From an uncultured Pseudomonadales bacterium (lineage in GTDB: Bacteria > Patescibacteriota > Microgenomatia > UBA1400 > PJMF01), in the NCBI GenBank assembly GCA_964633875.1, contig CAZWKL010000002.1, positions 89,338 to 151,302 on the forward strand: 61,965 nt of DNA, written 5' to 3'. Below, in pieces: positions 3,614-51,136 of this stretch. Below the pieces are notes generated by a model. The model searched no databases. It had not been told where the DNA came from and worked only from the letters and a program-made list of their open reading frames with translations. The position numbers and the translations under genes are program-made. Position 1 is the first letter of the stretch, and each line of letters starts with the position of its first letter.

Positions 3614-3982
3614 ATGTCCAACGATCTTAATCCTCAGCTTCAGCAAATTCTTGATAATCTTGGTTATGACCTACAAAATTATATTAATGAAGAGGTCGCG
3701 CGCCAGCTTGGTGAACAAAAAGCAGCGGCCGTGAATATAGAAACCCCACCGGAACGGCAAGCTGAGTGGCAGCAACCCGAACAACCTGAGCAGCAACAGT
3801 CTCCTCAACCGGAACAGCAACCGGAAATCGAGCAGTTCCAACCAGAGCAGTATCAAGCCGATATCACCAACTATCAATCGCTTGATGGGGCCAATGGCAT
3901 CAATAACATCCCTGGCGGCATGTCTGATTACGACAAAATGTTTGGCATTCTGGCCAGGTTAAAAAACAAACACGCATCATAA
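3614..3982 (+). CDS. Hypothetical Gln/Pro/Glu-rich protein
   Basis: ORF with QQPEQ-type repeats; start placed at ATG 3614, 6 nt after a TACACT -10 box; followed by a terminator. Confidence 0.6.
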   Translation: MSNDLNPQLQQILDNLGYDLQNYINEEVARQLGEQKAAAVNIETPPERQAEWQQPEQPEQQQSPQPEQQPEIEQFQPEQYQADITNYQSLDGANGINNIPGGMSDYDKMFGILARLKNKHAS

Positions 3983-4009
3983 ATGCAACGACACCAATGA
4001 CCGTACTAA

Positions 4010-4032
4010 AAAACCCAGCCAGGCTGGGTTTT
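4010..4032 (+). terminator. Intrinsic terminator (likely bidirectional)
   Basis: AAAACCCAGC-CAG-GCTGGGTTTT hairpin just after ORF 3614..3982. Confidence 0.75.
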
Positions 4033-4049
4033 GCTATTTGAAAGGGGTT

Positions 4050-5405
4050 ATGAAGCAGAAACGCAAACGCAGTATTGTTATTTGCGGCGGCGCTTTTGGC
4101 GATGAAGGCAAGGGTAGGGTGGTGGACTCGTTTGTGAATGAATTTGCCGCTCTGGGCCAAATTGTGGTTTATCGCGACAACGGCGGCGCCAATGCCGGTC
4201 ACACCGTCGAGTTTGATGGGGTGCGGGTAGCTTTGCATCAGCTGCCTTCAGGTGTGTTTTTCGAAGCCGGTACCGTGATTTTGGGCAAAGGCATGGTTTT
4301 GCATCCGGCTGATTTGCTTGAGGAAATTGCTGAAGTAGAAAAGGCTGTCGGTGGTCAGGTGCCGGCCCGGATCAAAATTGACGAAATGGTCACGCTCTCC
4401 CTGGATACTCACCGGGCTTTTGAAGCGGTGCTCAAAGGTTGGCAAACCGGCCAGCACGGCTCGACTGGCAGAGGGATTGCGCCAGCGTATGTTGATATTT
4501 TGCTGCGTCACCCGCTCAGGATGCGTGATCTTTTGCATTTTGATAAAGAGAAAATTGGTAAACATTATGATTTGTACCAGGCTTTGGTGAGTGGCCTTGG
4601 CGCTAAGCTGGCAGCCGCTTCAGTGCCAACGCTGTCGGGGGAGATCACCAAAACCGGCACCAAAAAGCAGTTCATCGCCAAACTCCAAGAGCAAGCAGCT
4701 GCCCTCAAACCCTACATCGAAGACGTCTCGGCTTTTCTGATCACTACCTGGAAGGATGAAAAAAATTACAGTTTTGTTTTCGAAAAAGCCCAAGCCATTG
4801 GGCTGGATCACCGCTGGGGTGTTTATCCTGACGTGACCGCTTCAGACACTACCAGCGCTGGCATTTTTGCCTCCACCGAAGGCATCATCGACCCGGAGCA
4901 GATAGAAATCCATGCCGGGGTACTAAAAGCCACTTACATGTCGAGTGTCGGTGTGAGGCAGTTGCCTACCGTCATGCCGGCAGCAGAGGCGGAAATCATC
5001 CGCCAAGATGCTCACGAGTATGGTGCCACCACCGGCAGGCCGAGGGATGTGGTTTATTTTGATTTGCCGATGCAGCAGTATTTGGCCAGAGTCGGCAGAC
5101 TGACTCACCTAGTCTTGACTCATATGGATATCGTTTATCCTGATAGAAAAGTGAAAATTTGCCGGCAATATACCCTGAAAGGCAAACCAGTGGCGTACCG
5201 GCCGGATCAAGAATTTCTCCTCAGAGTGCAGCCGGTTTATGAGGAGTTTGCGCCCTGGGATGTTGAAGAGTTGCGGCAAGCCAAAGACCGAGAGTCGTTG
5301 CCCAAAAACGCCAAAATCTTTATTGAATTTCTAGAAACCGAGTTCCAACTGCCAGTATTAATGATTACCACTGGGCCGGAAAGGGGAGCGGAAGTTATTT
5401 TCTAG
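4050..5405 (+). CDS. purA: Adenylosuccinate synthetase
   Basis: GDEGKG, NGGANAGHTV, HQLPSG, GSTGRGIAPAY, EYGATTGRPR and C-terminal TGPER; AAAGGGG RBS before ATG 4050. Confidence 0.95.
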   Translation: MKQKRKRSIVICGGAFGDEGKGRVVDSFVNEFAALGQIVVYRDNGGANAGHTVEFDGVRVALHQLPSGVFFEAGTVILGKGMVLHPADLLEEIAEVEKAVGGQVPARIKIDEMVTLSLDTHRAFEAVLKGWQTGQHGSTGRGIAPAYVDILLRHPLRMRDLLHFDKEKIGKHYDLYQALVSGLGAKLAAASVPTLSGEITKTGTKKQFIAKLQEQAAALKPYIEDVSAFLITTWKDEKNYSFVFEKAQAIGLDHRWGVYPDVTASDTTSAGIFASTEGIIDPEQIEIHAGVLKATYMSSVGVRQLPTVMPAAEAEIIRQDAHEYGATTGRPRDVVYFDLPMQQYLARVGRLTHLVLTHMDIVYPDRKVKICRQYTLKGKPVAYRPDQEFLLRVQPVYEEFAPWDVEELRQAKDRESLPKNAKIFIEFLETEFQLPVLMITTGPERGAEVIF

Positions 5406-40774: not shown

Positions 40775-40934
40775 TTATTGTCTTTCTGGTCGACATTCCT
40801 TTGTATACAATTGCGTCGAAGAATACCTGCTCCCAGGCTTATTGTCAACCACAAAAACATACTCTACCTGTATTGAACTTATAATGCAATAAGGCGAACA
40901 ATTCTATATAATGCACCTAGATTCGAAAGGATTT

Positions 40935-41498
40935 ATGGCAGGGCACAGTAAATGGAACAACATTAAGAACAGAAAAGGCGCCGAAGATGCCAAGCGGGGC
41001 AAGGTTTTCAGCCAAATTGGCAAAATGATCAGGATGGCTGTGAGAGAAGGCAAATCAGACAAGCCCGAATCTAATCCTGCCCTCAGGACTGCTCTGGAAA
41101 AAGCCAGGCAGGCCAACCTACCTAAAGAAAATATCCAGCGCGCCATCGATCGTGGCATGGGTAAAAGTTCGAGTGGTGCGCAAATCCAAGAAATTGCCTA
41201 TGAAGGTTTTGGCCCTGGTGGCGTAGCTATTATTGCCGTGGCGCTGACCGACAACCCCAACCGTACCAGCTCAGACGTCAAATTTGCCTTTTCCCGCGCT
41301 GGTGGCTCATTGGGCAGCCCGGGTAGCGCCACCTACATGTTCAAGCGCGATAATTCGGGTGACTACGCTCCCACCATGACCATTCCGGTGAGCGAACAAG
41401 ATCTTCAAAAAATTCAACAATTGGTAGATACTTTAAGAGAGAACGAAGATATTGAAGACGTTTATACTGCTGCCAATCTTGGCTCAGAAGAAGAGTAA
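40935..41498 (+). CDS. yebC: YebC/PmpR family protein (short form)
   Basis: MAGHSKWNNIK, ANLPKENI.RAI, YEGFGPGG, TDNPNRT, GSLG..G. Confidence 0.92.
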   Translation: MAGHSKWNNIKNRKGAEDAKRGKVFSQIGKMIRMAVREGKSDKPESNPALRTALEKARQANLPKENIQRAIDRGMGKSSSGAQIQEIAYEGFGPGGVAIIAVALTDNPNRTSSDVKFAFSRAGGSLGSPGSATYMFKRDNSGDYAPTMTIPVSEQDLQKIQQLVDTLRENEDIEDVYTAANLGSEEE

Positions 41499-41501
41499 CA
41501 T

Positions 41502-42269
41502 ATGCGCCGAAGAGAAAAATTTGTCATTGCCTCGGTTTTGTTAAGCCTTGGCCTGCTGGCAGTTCAGTGGACAGTGTTGGATTACCGCTATTTCGCCCTG
41601 GTGATCTTCACCGTAGTTTCGTATTTGGCTTCTACTTGGGCGCTTAATGATGACCTGCAATTTCACGAACGTTTTACCGTTGTTCCATTTCCTTCCATGT
41701 ACGCCCTGGCAGTGGCTTTGTTTTACTACCTGCTACCGGAAAGCGTCTTCAGTCAAGTGGCGATTTTGATTCTTTTTGGCGTTGGTATGTACGCCTTGTT
41801 TTTGACCTCCAATATTTATTCCGTCGCCAAGGGCAGGACTATCCAGCTACTGCACGCCGCTCATGCAGTGGGCCTATTTTTTAACCTGATAACCTCATTG
41901 TTGCTTTCCAACACGATTTTCTCGCTCCGGCTGCCTTTTTATTTTACCGTTTTGCTTATTGGCCTGGTACACTATCCTTTAATTTTCATGTCTCTCTGGT
42001 CAATCAAACTGGAGAATGAAGTGACGTTGCGGATTAGCACTCTGGCCGGTATTTTGACCATTATGTTGATGGAAGTTGCTTTAGTGCTGTCATTTATCCC
42101 TTTGACCGTCTGGTATAACGCTTTGTTCATTATGTCGATGTTGTATATTGGTTTGGGCATATTCCACAACTACTTAAAGGGGAGGCTGTTTTCCAGGACG
42201 CTGACAGAATACACTTTGGTGGCCGCCTTTGTGGGTTTAATATTTTTGTTAGTTTTTCCGTTAAAATAA
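41502..42269 (+). CDS. Polytopic membrane protein, unknown function
   Basis: About 8 hydrophobic helices; co-oriented with yebC with 3-nt spacing. Confidence 0.75.
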   Translation: MRRREKFVIASVLLSLGLLAVQWTVLDYRYFALVIFTVVSYLASTWALNDDLQFHERFTVVPFPSMYALAVALFYYLLPESVFSQVAILILFGVGMYALFLTSNIYSVAKGRTIQLLHAAHAVGLFFNLITSLLLSNTIFSLRLPFYFTVLLIGLVHYPLIFMSLWSIKLENEVTLRISTLAGILTIMLMEVALVLSFIPLTVWYNALFIMSMLYIGLGIFHNYLKGRLFSRTLTEYTLVAAFVGLIFLLVFPLK

Positions 42270-42934
42270 GCTGATTTTTTCTCCTTTTTCTCTGTCTGGT
42301 TTCTGTCTGGAAAAAAGAGTGGGGAAGAGTAAGGCTGAAAATATGTCCTACAAGCTGTAGTATTTAAGTCTGTTGGTAGAGGCGGTGGTTGTATCCAGGC
42401 GGATTGGTAAAATATCCAGTAAATAAAAGAAATTCTTTAGTTGAAAAGCAAAAATTCAAATTAAACTCGAGCAAAGTAGGGGACTCAAATTTTTTTAGTG
42501 GGGAAGCAAAGGGCAGAGTGATATAGTTTGATAGGGTAAAGTGATACGGTTTGATACACCGTGCAATGTGGATAACCAAACTATTATAGGACATAAATCT
42601 GAGCGATACCAGGCTGAAAGCAGTCAGTAATTACCGGATTCTTACAATTGCTGTGAGACACAAAACGGCTTAATTAAACATCCCAGTAAGACCGTCATGC
42701 AAAAATAATTTAGCCTGGTAGCTGCCTGGTAGGGGCGGGAAAACACAAAAAACCCGAATAGACCTTAAGAACAGTGGCACTACTCAGATTTTCATAGGTA
42801 CGGCCAGAGCCAAAGAGGGGCGCTAAAATTTGTTTAATTGGTGAAAAAGGTTTGTAATAAGGAAAAATAAACCCCTCTTGCGATAGTGGGGGAATGGCCT
42901 CTCCTCTCAGTTTTGGCCTGTCTAGATTTCTGTG

Positions 42935-42966
42935 TTATGTCGCACAATATTACTTTTACGACATAA
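42935..42966. other. Candidate dif-like Xer recombination site
   Basis: TTATGTCGCACAA-TATTAC-TTTTACGACATAA, an imperfect palindrome (11 of 13 arm positions) with a 6-bp core; 1.2 kb from the xer gene. Confidence 0.5.
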
Positions 42967-43291
42967 GGCCAGAATTGGCCGGCAGGACTGTTTTTAAGCC
43001 GGTTTTTAACTTTCCCTCCTGTTCCTGCTCAATTTTACTTTTATTTTTATTTTTGTTATTTTTTGTCCCGTAAACTCTCTCTTAAGGAGCTGCTTCTTGA
43101 TTCAGGCTACTATCCCTTGGTTTTGGTTCTTGAGCTCTGTATACTACATTGAGTAGTAGGTGCAAAGCTGTTTGTAGCCGCTACTATCCCAACGGGCGAT
43201 CAATTGAACGATGTCATGATCCACCCGATTCATAAAAACCCGATTTTGGGCGTTTGAGGGGTTTTGCTTGATGTATCAAGCAAAATATTAA

Positions 43292-43600
43292 TTAAGATTG
43301 CTGCTCAGAGAGTTCCTGATCCATATAAAACAGAATTAGATAGATTGGGTCAGTAGTTGATCTGTTAGCAAAAAACTGCCTGCAAGCTTTAGGGAAATCC
43401 GCAGACAGATTACGTTTTAGCGCCCGCTGATAAAGTTCTTTAAGTTTTGTTAATTGATTACCGCGACCCTGAATTAAATTTACTGCTTGTGCTTCAGGAT
43501 TATCATTGAAGAATCTCTGGAGGAGAAGATAATATTCAGATCTGGGATCTTTTTTAGTGTTTTCTCTGTCACCAAAGAAAGCTTTTCCAAAAATGCTCAT
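43292..43600 (-). CDS. Hypothetical protein (102 aa)
   Basis: AT-rich ORF; no motif recognised. Confidence 0.55.
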   Translation of the reverse strand: MSIFGKAFFGDRENTKKDPRSEYYLLLQRFFNDNPEAQAVNLIQGRGNQLTKLKELYQRALKRNLSADFPKACRQFFANRSTTDPIYLILFYMDQELSEQQS

Positions 43601-43639
43601 ATGTGTGATTGTAGCAAGTAGACGACATAAACCGTAGCA

Positions 43640-43981
43640 CTAGCGACGTTGTGCTTCTGTAGACATGAGCTTAAGTAGTCTATCTGGAGAAATGCTTTCA
43701 ACTGCGACTGGCTGCCTAGTTAAAACATGATCTTGGCGTCCACTTTGCAGTATATCTGCAAAAGCTGCATAAGAACCAGGAAAATCATCTCTGAGTACGC
43801 GGCCATCGGTTGCTTCATTATAAGCTTTGCTCAATCGGTGCAGTGCATAGCCTCCGGGACTTTTGGTTGACAAGCCTTCAAGTAATTTCGGTTCACCCTC
43901 AAGGTGTTTCTCAAATGTCTGTACCTCTATTTGCGTACCGTTACCTTTACCTTCTGACTTTCTAAAAAATTCTACAGCCAT
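43640..43981 (-). CDS. Hypothetical protein (113 aa)
   Basis: AGGAGAG RBS upstream; no motif recognised. Confidence 0.6.
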   Translation of the reverse strand: MAVEFFRKSEGKGNGTQIEVQTFEKHLEGEPKLLEGLSTKSPGGYALHRLSKAYNEATDGRVLRDDFPGSYAAFADILQSGRQDHVLTRQPVAVESISPDRLLKLMSTEAQRR

Positions 43982-44130
43982 GTTGTCTCTCCTATTGGCA
44001 TTTGGTTGTTATTACCTACAAGTATATAGTAAGATAGTGAAACGTACATTAGTAAATTTGTGGCCAATTGCTATACTGAGTTCAACTCACCTGGTATGCA
44101 GGTTATCTGTATACCCGCCGGACCACTATT

Positions 44131-45066
44131 ATGAAACTCTCTACTCTACCCCGCCCCGCTGTTGTGGCTTTTTTGGAACATCTTGAGGTGGAGCGCAATT
44201 TAAGCCGCTTGACTATCCGCAATTATCGCCACTACTTGACTGTTTTTCTTGACTGGTTTGAGGCTGAGGGCCACAAAGACCTCAAGGAACTCGACCAAGA
44301 CTTGGTGAGGAAGTACCGGGTCTTTCTTGCCAATTACCTCAACAGCCAAAGCCGGGATCTCTCCAAGAAAACGCAGAGTTTTTACATCATTGCGCTCAGA
44401 TCTTTGCTTAAATATTTAGTCAAAAACGATTTGCCGGTGCTGCAGCCGCAAAAAATTGACCTGCCCAAGGCCGAATCAAGCCACATGCAGTTTCTCAATC
44501 GCGAAAAAGTCGAGCTGCTGCTGTCCCAGCCGCTGCTTTCCAGCCAAACGGGGTTGCGGGATAAGGCGATTTTGGAAGTGCTGTTTTCTACTGGCTTGCG
44601 GGTGAGTGAGTTGGTGAGCTTAGATCGTGATCAGGTGGATCTGGACTCCAAAGAGTTTGGGGTGATTGGTAAGGGCCGCCGGCCGCGGGTGGTTTTCCTC
44701 AGTGATCGGGCTGCCGAGTGGTTGGGGCGCTGGCTCCACTCCCGCGAAGATCACTGGCAGCCGGTTTTTATTCGCTTTGCTGGTAAGCAGCCGGAGATTA
44801 CTTCCGACGGCAGCGAGATGCGCTTGACCACTCGCAGCGTGCAGCGCATTGTTGATAAGTACTGCCGCAAGGCTCACCTGCCGGTTAAGATTAGTCCGCA
44901 CGGATTGCGGCACAGTTTTGCTACCGATTTGCTCCAAAATGGCGCCGGCATTCGGGACGTTCAGGAACTACTTGGCCACAAAAGTATTGCTACTACTCAG
45001 ATTTACACTCACGTTACCCGGCCGGAGCTGAAAAAGATTCATCAAAAACATCATTCTAAGCTGTAA
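44131..45066 (+). CDS. XerC/XerD-family tyrosine recombinase
   Basis: N-terminal ERNLS..TIRNY; catalytic R (TGLRVSEL), GKG, HGLRHSFAT, LGHK, TQIYTH all intact. Confidence 0.93.
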   Translation: MKLSTLPRPAVVAFLEHLEVERNLSRLTIRNYRHYLTVFLDWFEAEGHKDLKELDQDLVRKYRVFLANYLNSQSRDLSKKTQSFYIIALRSLLKYLVKNDLPVLQPQKIDLPKAESSHMQFLNREKVELLLSQPLLSSQTGLRDKAILEVLFSTGLRVSELVSLDRDQVDLDSKEFGVIGKGRRPRVVFLSDRAAEWLGRWLHSREDHWQPVFIRFAGKQPEITSDGSEMRLTTRSVQRIVDKYCRKAHLPVKISPHGLRHSFATDLLQNGAGIRDVQELLGHKSIATTQIYTHVTRPELKKIHQKHHSKL

Positions 45067-45337: not shown

Positions 45338-45411
45338 GGGCCTGTGGCGCAGTTGGCTAGCGCGTCTGTATGGCATACAGAAGGTCAGGGGTTCGAATCC
45401 CCTCAGGTCCA
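45338..45411 (+). tRNA. tRNA-Ala(GGC)
   Basis: GGGCCTG/CAGGTCC with G3:U70, TCTGT-ATGGCAT-ACAGA (A32-U38 typical of Ala-GGC), TTCGAAT; TGG-TACAAT promoter upstream. Confidence 0.95.
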
Positions 45412-45423
45412 CACCGCAATCCC

Positions 45424-48141
45424 CTACTCCTCATCCTCCACTTTTTTGAATGTCAGCGCCACGGCGGCCACTTTGTCGGTCTTTTTGAGCCGAATGAGGA
45501 TCACGCCTTGAGTGGGTCTGGTTAAAATCGGGATGGATCTGTGAGTCAGCGGCATTTTGATGGTCTGGCCTTCTTGAGTGGAGATGACCACTTCCTTGTG
45601 TTCGTCGGTAACTTTTTTGGCCGCGGCCACTGGGCCGGTCTTTTTGGTAATTTCCGACACCTTTACGCCCATGCCGGCGCGTTTTTGGACCGGATATTGA
45701 TCAAGCTTGGTGCGCTTACCCATGCCGTTTTCAGTAATCACCAGTAGCTCCCGGGTTTTGGCCTTTTCTTCAGCCAAATCTTCCGTTTGCGAGAGCGATT
45801 CCACCCCCATGACGTAGTCGCCTTTTTTAAGCGTAATGCCCTTAACGCCTTTGGTGTCGCGGTTGGAAGCCTTGACTTCAGTTTCCGAGAAACGAATGCT
45901 TTTGCCTTCGTGAGTGATCAGCATCAAGTCATCGTCGCCGGTGGTGAGTTTGCCCCAAACCACCTCATCGTTGTTGTTGAGCGAAATAGCAATGATACCA
46001 TTTTGGCGGATGTTGTCGTAGAGTTTGACAGGGGTTTTCTTGACCAAACCGTCTCTGGTGGCCAGGATAATGTAATTTTCGGCGTCTTTCTTTTCGTCGA
46101 CAGCCAAGATAGATTGCACCCTTTCTTCCGGTTGCAGGCTGATAATGTTGACGATAGCCGTGCCTTTTGCCTGCTTGGAAGCCTCGGGAATTTCGTAGCC
46201 CTTAAGCTTGTAAACCCGGCCTTGGTTGGTGAAAACCATGAGCGTGTCGTGGGTTTCAATGGTGAGCAGGAATTTGACAATATCCTCGGCTTTCATCTTC
46301 ACGCCAATCGAGCCTTTGCCGCCGCGGGCCTGACCACGGAGCGCCGAAGGGTTCATGCGCTTGATGTAGCCGCTCTCGGTCATGGTAATAACAGAAACTT
46401 CGTTGGGTACCAGGTCTTGTTCGCTGAATTCGCCGACTTTGCCCTTGATCAGTTGCGTTCTGCGCTCATCGCCGTAGAGCGAGATCAACTCGTTGGTTTC
46501 GTCCACAATCACCTTGAGAATGGCTTCTGGTTTGCTGAGCAGCGTAATTAAATCTTCAATCGTTTGCCGCACGGAGTTGTACTCGTCTTCGATTTTTTGT
46601 CTTTCCAGGGCGGCCAGCCGTTTCAGCTGCATGTCTAGGATAGCGGTGGCCTGAATTTCGGAGAAGCCAAATTTTTTCATCAAGGCTGCCCGGGCCGCAT
46701 CGGTGTCGGCAGATTTGCGGATAGTGTCAATGACCGCGTCCAGATTTTCCAAAGCAATCAACAGCCCTTCCAAAATGTGGGCTCGATCTCTGGCGCCAAT
46801 TAAGTCGTACTGGCTGCGGCGGACGACAATGTTTTGCCGGTGCTTGATGTACTCAGTGAGAATCTGCCTGATGTTCATCAGCTGAGGCGTGCCTTCACTG
46901 TTGAGCGCCACCATGTTCATGGAAAAACTGGTTTGCAGATCGGAGTACTTGAAAAGTTTGTTGAGAATGACCTTCGGTCTGGAGTCGCGCTTGAGTTCAA
47001 TAGTAATTTGCAAGCCTTGGCGGTCTGAGTCGTCGTTGAGATCGCGAATACCTTCAATTTTCCTGTCCCGCACCAATTTGGCAATTTTTTCCAGCAGCCT
47101 GGCTTTGTTCACTTGGTAGGGAATTTCAGAAATGATGATCTGGTAACCACCTTTGTTGCTTTCTTCAATCTTTGCCCGGGCGCGGATAACTACCCGGCCT
47201 TTGCCGGTTTTGTAGCCTTCTTTGATAGCTTCGAAGTCATACATGATGCCCTGGGTGGGAAAATCCGGGCCTTGGATGTACTCCATGATTTGGTCGATGT
47301 CGATTTCTGTCTGAAACTCTCCGGCTAGGACTGTTGGCTCAGTAGCCAGCAGAATGTCAATCGATTCATGCATCTCACCAATAGCTTCAGTGACACTAGC
47401 GGTTTTGGACTTTTTTACTTCAGGCAAATGCAGTTCGGCCCCTTCAGGTCTGGGAGAGCTGCCCATCTCAATCATAGCTATAATGGCGTTGCAGACCTCG
47501 GTGAGATTGTGCGGCGGAATTTTGGTAGCCATACCCACGGCAATACCCTCAGCACCCATCAACAGCAGATTGGGCAGCTTGCCCGGCATCACGCCAGGTT
47601 CTTTGAGCGAGCCATCAAAGTTGTCATTGAACGGCACCGTATCTTTATCAATATCCTGCAACAGCTCTTGAGCAATTTTGTCCATCCGCGCCTCGGTGTA
47701 ACGCATGGCCGCCGGACTATCGCCGTCAATGGAGCCAAAGTTGCCCTGGCCGTCAATCAGTGGATAGCGCATGCTGAAATCTTGAGCCAACCGCACCAGT
47801 GCCATGTAAACAGAAGAATCGCCATGTGGGTGGTACTTACCCAAAACGTCACCGACAATGCGGGCGGCTTTTTTGTAGGGACTGCGGTGAGTGATACCGG
47901 TTTTGTACATCGAGTACAAAATGCGGCGATGCACCGGTTTGAGGCCGTCGCGAACATCCGGCAAAGCCCGGGAAACAATCACGCTCATGGCGTAATCAAG
48001 GTAGCTTTTCTCCATTTCCTGTTTGATGGAAATGTATTTCAGCTTGCCATACCTGGTTTCTTCAATAGTGCCGACGAGGGAATCTTCCTGGTCGCCGGAT
48101 TGAGTGATTTCGGTGACTTCACCTTTTTTGTCATTTGCCAT
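45424..48141 (-). CDS. gyrA: DNA gyrase subunit A
   Basis: [29 protein letters not shown] catalytic Tyr, GyrA-box QARGGKG, pinwheel CTD. Confidence 0.97.
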
Positions 48142-49090
48142 AGGCGCTTTCTAAAGCTGCTTCAATTGCCGGAGCAATTTCCTTTTTTCTGGACATTTTG
48201 GGACCGATATCAAGCAGGTTATTTTCTACTGCCCCGCCGAAAGCGGCGGTAGCCACAGTTGCTTCTTGATCTGAGAGGATAATTAGCTTGGTGTTGACTT
48301 TGAGAATATCGGTAATAGCCACAAACAGCAGCTCTACTCCCAGTTCCGTCTTGACCTGCTGCATGGCGGCCAGGATATCAGCTTTTTTAGTTTCGGTGAA
48401 ATAAGCTTGGTCAACCGTTTCTACTTGGTTGATCATGGTTTTTTTGGCAAAATCAAAAATTTTGTAGTCGTTTTTAACAATTTCTTCATCTGTTAAGCTG
48501 GAAACATTGGATTTAGCCTGGAAAATTTCCAGAGTGAAAGCGTCAACATCATCAATTTCGGCGATTTTAGCCAATTCGGCGCCCAGTTTTTGGTCCAACT
48601 CGGTAGTAGTGGCAGATTTGTAACCGACAGTATCCGAAAGAATAGCTGCCAGCATCAAGCCAGCCAGAGTTTTGTCCGGAACCACCTGCTGCTGTTTCAT
48701 CAAATAGTACACAATAATAGTGGAAGACCCCCAGGTTTTGAAGGTCATAAAAATTGGTTGAGGCAAGTTGAGGTTAGCCTTGTGGTGGTCGATAATTTCC
48801 ACGATCTGGTCCTGATTGAGACCGGGCAAGCGCTGCGACTCCTCGTTGTGATCCACCAGCACCACCGTGTCCTCAGCAGTGATGTCGGCGGCGGTGATCA
48901 GACGCGGCGCGGTAACACCGAATTTCTCAAACAAAAAGGCCGTTTCCGGATTGAGCGGATCGGCGATAACGGCTTCGGCGTTGGGACGCTGGAAGCCTTC
49001 ATGCTGCTGGTACAGATACGCTAACGCCATCGGAGCAACAACCGCATCGGTGTCTGGTTTGGTATGACCAATAATGTAGGTGGTGGGCAT
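48131..49090 (-). CDS. ppaC: Mn-dependent inorganic pyrophosphatase (family II, DHH/DHHA2)
   Basis: [33 protein letters not shown]. Confidence 0.93.
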
Positions 49091-49111
49091 AGGTGTATCC
49101 TTTTTAACTAA

Positions 49112-51136
49112 CTAAACATCAACCTCGGCTAATTTAGCGTGAGTTTGAATAAATTTCTTGCGTGGCGCCACGTCATCTCCCATCAGGGTGCTGAAAGTAG
49201 CGTCGGCTTTGTCGGCGTCCTCGATAGTGACCCGCTTAAGAATCCTTGACTCCGGATTCATGGTGGTTTCCCAGAGTTGCTCCGGGTTCATCTCACCCAA
49301 ACCTTTGTAGCGCTGGATGCCGATGTTGGCGCCCGGATTTTCCTGGCGGATTGCTTCTACTGCCTGATGGCGTTCCTCGTCACTGTAGGCATAGATTTCC
49401 GTTTTGCCGTGGGTAATTTTGAAAAGCGGTGGCATGGCAATGTAGAGATAGCCTTGCTCGACTACTTCCGGCAGGTGGCGGAAGAAGAAAGTTAGCCCCA
49501 GGGTGGTGATGTGCTCGCCGTCCACGTCAGCGTCATTCATGAGAATAATGCGGTGGTAGCGCAGTTTTTCCGGATCGAAAGTTTCGCCGATGCCGGAGCC
49601 CAGGGCAATCACCAGGTTTTTCAGTTCTTCGAAAGCGACAATTTTGTCGAGGCGGGCGCGCTCGGTATTGAGGATTTTACCGCGGAGCGGGAAGATGGCC
49701 TGGAATTTGCGGTCGCGGCCTTGTTTGGCGCTGCCTCCCGCCGAATCGCCCTCTACAATGTAAATCTCCGACTCGGCCGGGTTGCGGCTCTGGCAGTCGG
49801 CCAGCTTGCCGGGCAAAGAACTGCCTTCAAAAACGCTTTTGCGGACCACGGCGTCCTTGGCAGCCCGGGCAGCCATGCGGGCGCGCGCCGAGAGCATAAT
49901 TTTGTCGATAATGCTTTTGCTGGCTTTGGGATGTTCTTCAAGAAAAGTGGTCAAGCCCTCTTTGAAAACTTGGTAAACGGCCGATTGGGCCTCAGAGTTA
50001 TTGAGCTTGGTTTTGGTTTGGGACTCAAACTGGAGGTCGTTGGACGGCATTTTCACAAAAACCACTGCCGCCAGGCCTTCCCGCAAATCTTCAGAATTAA
50101 AACTTTCTTTGTCCTTGAGCATCTCGTGCTTGTCGGCGTAATCCCGCAGCACCCGGCCAAGCGCCATCCGAAAACCGTTGATGTGAGTACCGCCGTCAGG
50201 CGTGCTGATCACATTGACGTAAGATTCCAGTCGCTCCTTGAAAGATTCGTTGTACTGCAGCGCCACTTCAATAGCAATTTTTTTGCCGGTACTGTCATCG
50301 GTCCAGACACCCTCAGTGTACATGACCGGGTGAATAGGCTTGCGCGACATGTTGATGTGTTCAACCAGCGACCTGATCCCACTTTCAAAATAAAAGTGCT
50401 GATAGGTGTTCTCAATCGAGTCGCGGAACTCAAAATAAATACCGGCCATGAGATAGGCGCGGTCTTTCATGACGTTGACCAGGGTTTTATGGATAAAAGT
50501 AGTAGTAGAAAAAATGGTTGGATCGGGAATAAAACTCAGCAAAGTACCGGATTCTTGGCTGGTAAAGTTTTCCGCTTCCACAGGAAACATTACCCGCACT
50601 TGTTTTTCCTGAATAATTTCTACTGGCTTTTGGGGTACGCCGCGCGAGTGCCACTGATAGTAGTACTTTTTGTCGCGCTTGACGACCACTTGCAGCAGCG
50701 AGGACAAAGCGTTGACCGCCGAAGAACCAACACCATGCAAGCCGCCACTAGCTTGATAGGCGGTTTCTTCAAACTTGCCGCCAGCGTGGAGTTTGGTCAT
50801 GACCACTTCCAGCGCGGAAACGCCGCTAACATGTTGGTCTACTGGGATACCGCGGCCGCCGTCGACCACAGTGATGGCTTCTTCACCGGCTTTCAGGCTG
50901 AGTTTGTCAATGAGTTCTTGTTGAGTGGCGGTGCGGCCGCTGCGGAAAAGCATGATCTTCTTGCCAAAGCCGGCAATAGCCTCATCAACCGCGTTATCCA
51001 AAATTTCTTTAGCTAAATGATGCAGCCCCCGAGCGTCGGTAGAGCCAATGTACATACCCGGCCTTTTACGCACCGGCTCCAGCCCTTCCAGGACTTTAAT
51101 TTCTGTAGCTTGATAATTGTTGTTATTCTTAGCCAT
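49112..51136 (-). CDS. gyrB: DNA gyrase subunit B
   Basis: GLEPVRKRPGMYIG, EILDNAVDE, HAGGKF, GGLHGVG, VEGDSAGG, PLRGKILN, DADVDG, RYKGLGEM. Confidence 0.96.
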   Translation of the reverse strand: MAKNNNNYQATEIKVLEGLEPVRKRPGMYIGSTDARGLHHLAKEILDNAVDEAIAGFGKKIMLFRSGRTATQQELIDKLSLKAGEEAITVVDGGRGIPVDQHVSGVSALEVVMTKLHAGGKFEETAYQASGGLHGVGSSAVNALSSLLQVVVKRDKKYYYQWHSRGVPQKPVEIIQEKQVRVMFPVEAENFTSQESGTLLSFIPDPTIFSTTTFIHKTLVNVMKDRAYLMAGIYFEFRDSIENTYQHFYFESGIRSLVEHINMSRKPIHPVMYTEGVWTDDSTGKKIAIEVALQYNESFKERLESYVNVISTPDGGTHINGFRMALGRVLRDYADKHEMLKDKESFNSEDLREGLAAVVFVKMPSNDLQFESQTKTKLNNSEAQSAVYQVFKEGLTTFLEEHPKASKSIIDKIMLSARARMAARAAKDAVVRKSVFEGSSLPGKLADCQSRNPAESEIYIVEGDSAGGSAKQGRDRKFQAIFPLRGKILNTERARLDKIVAFEELKNLVIALGSGIGETFDPEKLRYHRIILMNDADVDGEHITTLGLTFFFRHLPEVVEQGYLYIAMPPLFKITHGKTEIYAYSDEERHQAVEAIRQENPGANIGIQRYKGLGEMNPEQLWETTMNPESRILKRVTIEDADKADATFSTLMGDDVAPRKKFIQTHAKLAEVDV

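What the first reader, a model, noticed from the sequence alone, without database searches (positions are those of the whole stretch)
42935..45066. Symmetric dif-like site paired with a single Xer recombinase: probable chromosome terminus
Seen: 13-6-13 TTATGTCGCACAA-TATTAC-TTTTACGACATAA with near-symmetric arms; the left arm shares CGCA.AA with E. coli dif (GGTGCGCATAA); an intact Xer gene lies 1.2 kb away; flanking housekeeping genes mostly converge here. Established: single-recombinase systems such as XerS/difSL use sites close to the xer gene. Inference: a CPR single-Xer dimer-resolution site. Gyrase genes near a terminus would be unusual.
Basis: partly seen in the sequence, partly recalled or inferred. 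Interest (0 to 1): 0.62.

Follow-up and report, generated by a model that had tools for sequence, protein, structure and literature searches.

The report
Conserved dif site beside CPR xer
The palindrome is a real, deeply conserved recombination site (dif type) kept next to the Xer recombinase gene of ultra-small Microgenomates bacteria; a strand-polar DNA word converges on it and small phages copy it, yet the usual GC-skew mark of a replication terminus does not switch there.

Summary
Observation confirmed. The 32-mer is at 42935-42966, is unique in the window, and lies 1.16 kb upstream of an intact XerC/D-like gene (44131-45066). As a palindrome it is chance-level (1 seen, 1.1 expected). Its weight comes from conservation: about 66 of 80 related Patescibacteria loci carry one copy upstream of xer. 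Conservation is sharply bounded to about 30 bp, ATGTCGCACAA-TAATAC-TTTTGCGACGT, an 11-6-11 dif architecture.

Three further lines support a working Xer site:
- Synteny is chromosomal (YebC, DUF5656, site, variable genes, xer, gyrA, gyrB).
- The G-rich word RGGGGAG points at the site from both sides in relatives (AGGGGAG 85:0 left, 13:100 right, switching within 200 bp). In the window itself this signal is weak.
- Nineteen viral contigs carry the site; two small ones are inovirus-like and show no integrase (IMEX-like).

"Terminus" is only partly supported. GC skew at synonymous sites stays positive on both sides in 41 of 45 loci, and out to +48 kb in a 1.02 Mb relative. This fits the chromosome-wide one-directional skew published for Microgenomates (PMC7143001). 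I found no publication describing dif in CPR bacteria.

The parts
42935..42964 (+). dif-type core site. Left arm ATGTCGCACAA (42937-42947), centre TATTAC (42948-42953), right arm TTTTACGACAT (42954-42964). The arms differ at one strictly conserved inner position (GTCGCACAA against GTCGCAAAA).
   Evidence: Information content is 1.8-2.0 bits at 18 positions and falls to background within 4 nt on either side. Weight-matrix score is 51 against -7 for the next best window position.
44131..45066 (+). xer: a 311-aa XerC/D-like tyrosine recombinase. The catalytic Arg, His-x-x-Arg, His and Tyr boxes and a XerD-like C-terminal tail are present.
   Evidence: Pfam PF02899 and PF00589. NCBIfam XerC 246 bits and XerD 244 bits, below the equivalog cut-offs of 335 and 330; XerA 206 against 220. 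Best solved relative is E. coli XerD 1A0P, E 2e-39, with the alignment.
42510..42555 (+). Two tandem 23-bp repeats containing TGATATAGTTTGAT, an accessory motif of the conserved non-coding platform left of the site.
   Evidence: D2. TGATATAGT occurs at a median of -446 from the site in 37 of 60 related loci.
42567..42575 (-). Perfect DnaA box TTATCCACA within the platform.
   Evidence: TGTGGATAA occurs at about -436 in 16 of 60 loci and TGTGGAAAA at about -362 in 14 of 60. One box alone is chance-level in the window (3 seen, 1.8 expected).
42749..42758 (+). Conserved platform motif AAAACCCGAA.
   Evidence: 24 of 60 loci, median position -212. Window sequence.
43027..43075 (+). T-rich tract just right of the site.
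   Evidence: T-rich columns at +55 to +83 across 65 loci.
43292..43981 (-). Two orphan ORFs (102 and 113 aa) in the variable slot between the site and xer.
   Evidence: No Pfam, NCBIfam, PADLOC or PHROG match. Homologues are found only in the two nearest relatives. The slot holds 88 ORF clusters among 118 ORFs across loci, and its length ranges from 0.28 to 5.8 kb.
41502..42269 (+). DUF5656 gene, the conserved left neighbour of the platform; YebC lies at 40911-41498 before it.
   Evidence: Syntenic in 61 and 52 of 80 loci respectively.
45338..45412 (+). tRNA-Ala(GGC) between xer and gyrA. It is a fixed chromosomal neighbour, not an island border.
   Evidence: gyrA (45424-48141, minus strand) and gyrB (49112-51136, minus strand) are syntenic in 45 and 27 loci.

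Best explanation
The site is the chromosomal dif of this Microgenomates (Patescibacteria/CPR) bacterium. It is a 28-30 bp target at which the Xer tyrosine recombinase encoded 1.2 kb downstream binds two nearly identical 11-bp arms and exchanges strands across the 6-bp centre. This would resolve chromosome dimers.

Shown here:
- The site is conserved and single-copy within each locus examined.
- It is linked to xer inside a housekeeping neighbourhood.
- The recombinase is catalytically intact.
- In relatives, a G-rich polar word (RGGGGAG) switches strand exactly at the site, independently of gene strand.
- The same site occurs on small phage genomes, including inovirus-like ones with no integrase.

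Inferred:
- One Xer species occupies both arms, because the arms differ at only one conserved base.
- The polar word guides an FtsK-like translocase to the site, as KOPS does in E. coli.
- The phages integrate there using the host Xer, as IMEX elements do.

The site therefore marks the point where the two chromosome arms converge. It is not a GC-skew switch, in a lineage whose skew is published to run one way around the chromosome.
For: - Conservation: about 66 of 80 loci found through Xer carry one copy upstream of xer, with 18 near-invariant positions and sharp edges. More distant lineages carry variant sites about 70 bp upstream of xer, for example CTTCGCATAATGTACGTTTCACGAAG.
- Independence from xer expression: the site is inverted relative to xer in L020, L021 and L078, and the spacing is 0.28-5.8 kb with unrelated genes in between. 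It is therefore not a xer promoter element.
- Chromosomal synteny: TPR gene, YebC, DUF5656, site, xer, gyrA, gyrB.
- Recombinase: XerD-like with catalytic boxes intact.
- Polar word: AGGGGAG is 85:0 (+:-) on the left and 13:100 on the right, switching within 200 bp of the site. It is enriched on the site-pointing strand in all four gene-strand classes against synonymous-codon shuffles, z 0.8-16 by word and class (weakest for minus-strand genes on the left, which are few). In one genome it persists to +48 kb (z 3.4, 0 of 300 shuffles). The nearest clade shows 120:8 on the left and 31:104 on the right.
- Phages: 19 IMG/VR contigs carry the site, where I estimate well under one chance match. None shows host synteny. 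L095 and L097 encode a Zot/pI-type ATPase, and L097 also a rolling-circle Rep; neither shows a recombinase.
Against: - GC skew does not reverse at the site. Four-fold-site skew is about +0.135 on the left and +0.14 on the right in pooled loci, and +0.154 and +0.162 in + and - genes over 48 kb to the right in L071's contig. By the classical criterion this is not a terminus.
- In the window's own genome the polar-word signal is weak. Raw counts are 19:5 on the left and 2:5 on the right (Fisher p 0.02), but the excess over a codon-shuffle null is not significant (z 1.2).
- The pooled loci are related, and part of the pooled signal is inherited. For example, 41 of 73 antisense GGGGA in xer sit at one conserved place.
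- Genome-wide uniqueness of the site, the number of Xer genes and the presence of FtsK could not be checked.
- There is no biochemical evidence.
Confidence: 0.85

Rival explanations
1. Origin and terminus lie together. The DnaA-box platform just left of the site fires a single fork in the xer direction. That fork travels round the circle and ends at the site, so dif sits at a combined origin and terminus and the GC skew never switches.
For: - Skew keeps the same sign on both sides of the site.
- PMC7143001 reports a linear cumulative GC skew in closed Microgenomates genomes and itself proposes adjacent origin and terminus, or unidirectional theta replication.
- The conserved platform has a DnaA box and repeats about 400 bp left of the site, and a T-rich tract lies on the right.
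Against: - There is only one perfect DnaA box in the window, and the box is present in about a quarter of loci.
- No dnaA lies within 10 kb in any of 80 loci, nor in the window. A scan note places dnaA and a DnaA-box cluster on another contig (untested).
- Over 48 kb to the right, most genes (ribosomal proteins, gyrase, aminoacyl-tRNA synthetases) would be head-on to the fork.
Confidence: 0.12
2. The site is a Xer recombination site whose main role is not dimer resolution at a terminus. It would be a position-independent module used for gene insertion, inversion or phage integration, working without FtsK as archaeal XerA does.
For: - The slot between the site and xer is highly variable (88 clusters among 118 ORFs).
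- The site is inverted relative to xer in three loci.
- Phages carry the site.
- The XerA model scores 206 bits against a cut-off of 220.
- There is no skew switch at the site.
Against: - No second site or half-site flanks the cargo in the window, and no phage genes lie in any host slot.
- The sharp polarity switch of RGGGGAG at the site is what a translocase-guided dimer-resolution site predicts.
- Xer and the site are kept in a fixed housekeeping neighbourhood.
Confidence: 0.1
3. The palindrome is an operator for a dimeric transcription factor, or an RNA or DNA hairpin, and only happens to lie near xer.
For: - The repeat is inverted with a 6-nt spacer.
- Outer arm bases sometimes change together (ATGTCG..CGACAT against ACGTCG..CGACGT).
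- The palindrome alone is at chance level.
Against: - The centre and a one-base arm asymmetry are conserved, which hairpin pairing does not require. The C/A combination that breaks pairing is common.
- Distance and orientation to neighbouring genes both vary.
- No Rfam family matches, and promoter and terminator scans are at chance.
- This reading does not explain the site's presence on inovirus-like phages or the polarity switch at it.
Confidence: 0.03

Closest known systems
XerS/difSL of streptococci and lactococci (PMC2965235; review PMC5357621)
   Same: The recombination site is genetically linked to the recombinase gene as a module. The arms are nearly symmetric, which suggests a single recombinase species.
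   Different: difSL is 31 bp with an 11-bp centre and abuts xerS. Here the site is a classical 28-bp 11-6-11 and lies 0.3-5.8 kb from xer with variable genes between. The protein scores 123 bits on the XerS model against a cut-off of 267.
XerCD/dif with FtsK and KOPS (E. coli paradigm)
   Same: The site is 28 bp and 11-6-11, and the left arm shares CGCA.AA with the XerC arm. The protein is most like XerD. A G-rich polar word converges on the site as KOPS (GGGNAGGG) does on dif. IMEX-type phages copy the site.
   Different: Only one xer lies at the locus and the arms are almost identical. The XerC and XerD equivalog cut-offs are not met. GC skew does not switch at the site. The polar word is RGGGGAG.
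Archaeal XerA/dif (Cortez 2010 and Serre 2013, as reviewed in PMC5357621)
   Same: A single recombinase acts on a 28-bp 11-6-11 site. The site and gene form a module in some species. dif is often not opposite the origin. Short polar words are skewed towards dif.
   Different: This is a bacterial lineage. The XerA model falls just below its cut-off (206 against 220). FtsK dependence is unknown here.
XerH/difH (Helicobacter, Campylobacter) and XerL/dif (Legionellales, PMC9765430)
   Same: These are single-recombinase dif systems recognised through conservation, intergenic position and capture by mobile elements.
   Different: [quoted passage not shown] The proteins are distant: XerH scores only 53 bits.
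IMEX phages (CTXphi, VGJphi and other filamentous phages that use host Xer)
   Same: Small inovirus-like genomes (Zot/pI ATPase, rolling-circle Rep) carry a copy of the host dif and no integrase.
   Different: The presumed hosts are CPR bacteria. Integration was not observed: no prophage lies at any of the 80 host sites.
One-directional GC skew of Microgenomates chromosomes (Kadnikov et al. 2020, PMC7143001)
   Same: A G over C excess on one strand continues across the region whatever the gene strand, with no matching A/T term.
   Different: That paper did not locate dif, xer or any polar word. Here the chromosome shows a two-arm polarity converging on dif despite the one-way skew.

Membership tests
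Xer/dif chromosome dimer-resolution systems (generic) | About 28-bp site: two roughly 11-bp inverted arms around a 6-8 bp centre, in an intergenic position | tested here: met
   ATGTCGCACAA-TATTAC-TTTTACGACAT lies in a 1.0-kb ORF-free stretch.
Xer/dif chromosome dimer-resolution systems (generic) | Conserved across related genomes while the flanks diverge | tested here: met
   about 66 of 80 loci, with information content falling to background within 4 nt of either edge.
Xer/dif chromosome dimer-resolution systems (generic) | One copy per chromosome | tested here: inconclusive
   Single in the 62-kb window and in every 20-kb locus.
Xer/dif chromosome dimer-resolution systems (generic) | Xer-type tyrosine recombinase with catalytic Arg, Lys, His-x-x-Arg, His/Trp and Tyr | tested here: met
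   The alignment to XerD 1A0P shows GLRVSEL, GKG, HGLRHSF, LLGH and IYTHV all present.
Xer/dif chromosome dimer-resolution systems (generic) | Site at the replication terminus (cumulative GC-skew extremum) | tested here: not met
   No sign change in 41 of 45 loci, in the window, or to +48 kb in L071's contig. Whole-genome skew was not computable. The lineage is reported to have no switch at all.
Xer/dif chromosome dimer-resolution systems (generic) | Polar (KOPS-like) words converge on the site | tested here: met
   Met in relatives. The window alone is weak: 19:5 against 2:5, p 0.02, and not beyond the codon-shuffle null.
Xer/dif chromosome dimer-resolution systems (generic) | Xer binds the site and recombines it; loss gives unresolved dimers | not testable with these tools
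   Needs biochemistry or genetics.
XerCD (two-recombinase) systems | Distinct XerC and XerD, each meeting its equivalog model, binding different arms | tested here: not met
   Scores of 246 and 244 bits against cut-offs of 335 and 330. The arms differ at one base. A second Xer-like gene elsewhere is only an unchecked note.
XerS/difSL | XerS-type protein and a 31-bp site with an 11-bp centre abutting xerS | tested here: not met
   XerS model scores 123 bits against a cut-off of 267. The centre is 6 bp and the site lies 1.16 kb from xer.
Archaeal XerA | NF040815 equivalog score | tested here: not met
   206 bits against a cut-off of 220.
IMEX (mobile elements exploiting Xer) | Element without its own integrase carries a dif-like attP matching the host dif | tested here: met
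   for L095 and L097. Integration itself was not observed.
Integrative island at a tRNA gene | Integrase next to the tRNA 3' end, direct repeats of the tRNA end, variable presence | tested here: not met
   xer and tRNA-Ala are fixed neighbours in a housekeeping synteny. xer lies on the 5' side of the tRNA, and no second site was found.

The most novel reading that the evidence does not exclude
Microgenomates chromosomes have two arms whose polar words (RGGGGAG) and most genes converge on a xer-linked dif. Yet their G over C strand excess runs straight through that point. If so, either GC skew in this lineage does not report fork direction, or replication is unidirectional and starts and ends beside dif. 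In both cases dif and the polarity switch give the first fixed landmark for resolving the 'one-way skew' puzzle raised for these genomes in 2020.
Probability: 0.45. Interest if true: 0.82.

Novelty: new variant of a known kind. Interest (0 to 1): 0.66.

Why it matters
CPR/Patescibacteria make up a large share of bacterial diversity, and their chromosome biology is almost unknown. Four full-text searches found no paper describing dif, Xer or KOPS-like polarity in them.

A conserved, gene-linked dif gives three things:
- a landmark for orienting and checking MAG assemblies;
- a defined integration site for host-phage linkage and for genetic tools in cultivable relatives;
- a direct handle on the published anomaly that Microgenomates show a one-directional GC skew.

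If polarity and skew really are uncoupled, a basic assumption of bacterial genomics (skew switch = terminus = dif) fails for a whole class.

Tried and rejected
Genome-wide skew, site uniqueness, the Xer count and FtsK were therefore not tested.
- Rfam gave nothing at the gathering threshold, nor at E<=1 around the site, beyond a chance hit.
- Promoter and terminator scans were at chance level.
- Reading the site as a canonical E. coli-register dif, with CATAA-N6-TTATG at the inner ends, fails. The TTATG and CATAA here are outer bases. By eye on the sequence, shifting the register one arm left or right gives no second arm.
- IMEX scar in the window: no second site or half-site was found, and no phage genes lie in any host slot.
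- dnaA near the site: signature search of six-frame translations was negative for all loci and the window.
- Read-depth step at the site: the runs are held only as assembler contigs with flat depth, so there is no resolution. The 2.6-10x depth spike and contig breaks at the site reflect the same 31-mers in other organisms, not proven recombination.
- The first look-up in the contig walk failed because I mis-trimmed a minus-strand gene. It was corrected.
- The two orphan ORFs gave no hit in Pfam, NCBIfam, PADLOC or PHROGs.
- Pooled GC3 analysis is dominated by a few gene families. I therefore relied on the 58-kb single-genome stretch with diverse genes.
Full report
**1. The observation**

The 32-mer TTATGTCGCACAATATTACTTTTACGACATAA is at 42935-42966. 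It has no second match in the window with up to three mismatches. Its 13-nt arms are 11/13 complementary around a 6-nt spacer. By itself that is unremarkable: the window holds one such 13-6-13 repeat and shuffles give 1.1.

The gene 1,164 bp downstream (44131-45066, + strand) encodes a 311-aa tyrosine recombinase with SAM-like and catalytic domains. It scores 246 and 244 bits on the XerC and XerD models, below their equivalog cut-offs. It scores 206 bits on the archaeal XerA model (cut-off 220) and 123 on XerS. Its best solved relative is E. coli XerD (1A0P, E 2e-39), and the catalytic boxes and a XerD-like C-terminal tail align.

Neighbours are a TPR gene, YebC and DUF5656 on the left. Between the site and xer lie two orphan ORFs. 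To the right are tRNA-Ala(GGC), gyrA, a DHH/DHHA2 gene, gyrB, holB and a type IV pilus operon.

**2. Conservation**

A scan of one genome per species with the Xer protein returned 80 loci, all from Patescibacteria-type MAGs whatever their labels. About 66 carry one copy of the site upstream of xer.

Anchored on the site, information content is 1.8-2.0 bits at 18 positions between -4 and +25 and drops to background within four bases on either side. The consensus is TTAT GTCGCACAA TAATAC TTTTGCGAC GT. This gives an 11-6-11 site whose arms (GTCGCACAA and GTCGCAAAA) differ at one strictly conserved base, and whose centre is itself conserved. A matrix built from relatives scores the window site 51 bits; the next best position in 62 kb scores -7.

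The site is not tied to xer expression:
- Spacing ranges from 0.28 to 5.8 kb.
- The intervening ORFs fall into 88 clusters among 118.
- In L020, L021 and L078 the site is inverted relative to xer.

More distant loci carry variant sites about 70 bp upstream of xer. One example is CTTCGCATAATGTACGTTTCACGAAG, which shares CGCATAA-TGTA with E. coli dif.

Synteny is housekeeping: DUF5656 in 61 loci, YebC in 52, gyrA in 45 and gyrB in 27, all in the same order and strand. This is a chromosomal module, not an island.

**3. Is it the terminus?**

The window is the right end of a 151.8-kb contig, so I tested locally.

Raw GC skew steps down at the site (+0.11 to +0.03). Separating gene strands shows that the strand term does not reverse:
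- Third-position skew is positive on both sides in 41 of 45 loci.
- At four-fold sites the strand term is about +0.135 on the left and +0.14 on the right.

Pooled loci share a few gene families, so I also walked 48 kb rightwards along a 1.02-Mb contig of a relative. There, diverse + genes (+0.154, n=1078) and - genes (+0.162, n=1868) show the same positive + strand skew. No dnaA signature lies in any locus or in the window.

This matches a published anomaly. Closed Microgenomates genomes (Ch65, a Collierbacteria genome and a Beckwithbacteria genome) show a near-linear cumulative GC skew with no A/T counterpart, interpreted as adjacent origin and terminus or as unidirectional replication (PMC7143001).

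**4. A polarity switch at the site**

Earlier scan notes suggested this test. I searched for words whose strand bias flips at the site in all four gene-strand classes. G-rich words stood out.
- AGGGGAG is 85:0 (+:-) over the 9 kb to the left and 13:100 over the 11 kb to the right. GGGGA switches within one 200-bp bin at the site.
- The best words are AGGGGAGA (97 towards the site, 6 away), TGGGGGAG (38:0) and GGGGGAGA (28:0), which gives RGGGGAG.
- I compared against shuffles that keep each protein and its codon usage. The site-pointing strand is enriched and the other strand depleted in + and - genes on both sides. For example, antisense AGGGGA in right-hand + genes is 59 against 13.7 expected.

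Part of this signal is inherited: 41 of 73 antisense GGGGA in xer sit at one conserved place. But the signal also holds within single genomes:
- In L071's 58 kb, 49 point towards the site and 13 away (z 3.4, 0 of 300 shuffles). This includes right-hand + genes, where coding sense and polarity oppose each other.
- The clade nearest the window shows 120:8 on the left and 31:104 on the right.
- In the three loci with an inverted site the word polarity is unchanged.

In the window itself the signal is weak. Counts are 19:5 on the left and 2:5 on the right (Fisher p 0.02), and GGGNAG is 57:18 against 10:15 (p 0.001). The excess over the codon-shuffle null is not significant (z 1.2).

A G-rich word converging on the site, against a + strand that stays G-rich on the right, is the KOPS/dif signature without the skew switch. 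Most right-hand genes in L071's contig (ribosomal proteins, gyrase, aminoacyl-tRNA synthetases) also point towards the site.

**5. Phages copy the site**

The pattern GTCGYACAATNNNNCTTTTRCGAC occurs in 19 IMG/VR contigs, where I estimate well under one chance match. None shows the host synteny. Only L088 encodes a recombinase, and it is distant at 22-29% identity.

L095 (6.3 kb) and L097 (6.2 kb) both encode a Zot/pI-type assembly ATPase, and L097 also a rolling-circle Rep. These are inovirus hallmarks, and no integrase is present. This is the IMEX pattern and argues that the site is a working Xer target. No integrated copy lies at any of the 80 host sites.

**6. Surroundings**

The 666 bp between DUF5656 and the site form a conserved non-coding platform:
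- Two tandem 23-bp repeats containing TGATATAGTTTGAT lie at 42510-42555. The motif occurs at about -446 in 37 of 60 loci.
- A perfect DnaA box lies at 42567-42575. A DnaA box occurs at a similar position in about a quarter of loci.
- AAAACCCGAA lies at 42749-42758 (24 of 60 loci).
- Several + strand GGGGA lie in the platform, and a T-rich tract lies right of the site.

No Rfam family, promoter or terminator explains these features. Their role is unknown.

In metagenome assemblies the site's 31-mers have 2.6-10 times the depth of the flanks, and contigs of other organisms end in the site. This fits identical sites in co-occurring relatives and proves no recombination.

**7. Verdict**

The site is very probably the dif of a xer-linked dimer-resolution module (0.85). 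It works like XerS/difSL or XerA/dif in being gene-linked with near-symmetric arms. It works like XerCD/dif-KOPS in site geometry and converging polarity. It meets the membership thresholds of none of those protein families.

"Terminus" holds in the sense of arm convergence, shown in relatives and weakly here, but not in the sense of a skew switch. "Single Xer" is untested; a scan note reports a second Xer-like gene on another contig.

Literature searches found no description of dif or Xer polarity in CPR bacteria. Several unchecked notes of this scan reached similar readings in other genomes. Here I independently tested their claims about conservation, the platform motifs, the polarity switch, the absence of a local skew switch and the phage copies.

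Noticed in passing
window 43292-43981 (- strand): Two orphan ORFs (102 and 113 aa) sit in a lower-GC stretch (0.405 for 42-44 kb against about 0.47). They occupy the variable slot between the site and xer. They have no family match, and only the second has homologues, in the two closest relatives.
   Followed up: partly
window 42270-42935: A conserved non-coding platform holds tandem TGATATAGTTTGAT repeats, a perfect DnaA box, TATTATAGGAC, AAAACCCGAA and four + strand GGGGA. The motifs recur at fixed offsets in relatives. Their function is unknown.
   Followed up: partly
L001-L080, xer nt 120-150: 41 of 77 xer genes carry an antisense GGGGA at the same place near the 5' end. This may be a conserved DNA element or codon pair. 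It is absent from the window's xer.
   Followed up: no
L075:870, L077:9933, L042:4884, L080:9966: More distant lineages have divergent dif-like sites only about 70 bp upstream of xer, for example CTTCGCATAATGTACGTTTCACGAAG and TGTCAGACAATGTAACTTAACTGACA. The module is therefore older than the Microgenomates consensus.
   Followed up: no
L019:772, L065:269: Hybrid sites next to the xer start keep the left arm and part of the centre but have an unrelated right arm. They may be recombination junctions or half-sites in the xer promoter. The contigs end before any full site.
   Followed up: no
L051 (CAZGOA010000003.1): This is the only locus where third-position GC skew reverses significantly at the site (+0.124 on the left, -0.127 on the right, z -4.4). 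It is worth a whole-genome look.
   Followed up: no
L020, L021, L078: The site is inverted relative to xer while the RGGGGAG polarity of the flanks is unchanged.
   Followed up: partly
window 42932-42966 in runs X1-X4: Assembler depth over the site is 2.6-10 times that of the flanks. In X2 the strain's contigs break exactly at the site, and other contigs (23.5 kb, 2.2 kb, 4.4 kb) end in it.
   Followed up: partly
L088 (IMGVR_UViG_3300011999_000020) 3823-4755: One of the 19 viral contigs with the site encodes its own distant tyrosine recombinase about 500 bp from the site.
   Followed up: no
window 45424-51136 (- strand): gyrA and gyrB are separated by a DHH/DHHA2 gene. In L071's relative an H+-pyrophosphatase gene occupies that place.
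   Followed up: no
L027:2302-2784, L069:1714-2148, L032:7755-8300: Loci that lack the canonical site carry a second tyrosine-recombinase-like stretch within a few kb of xer.
   Followed up: no
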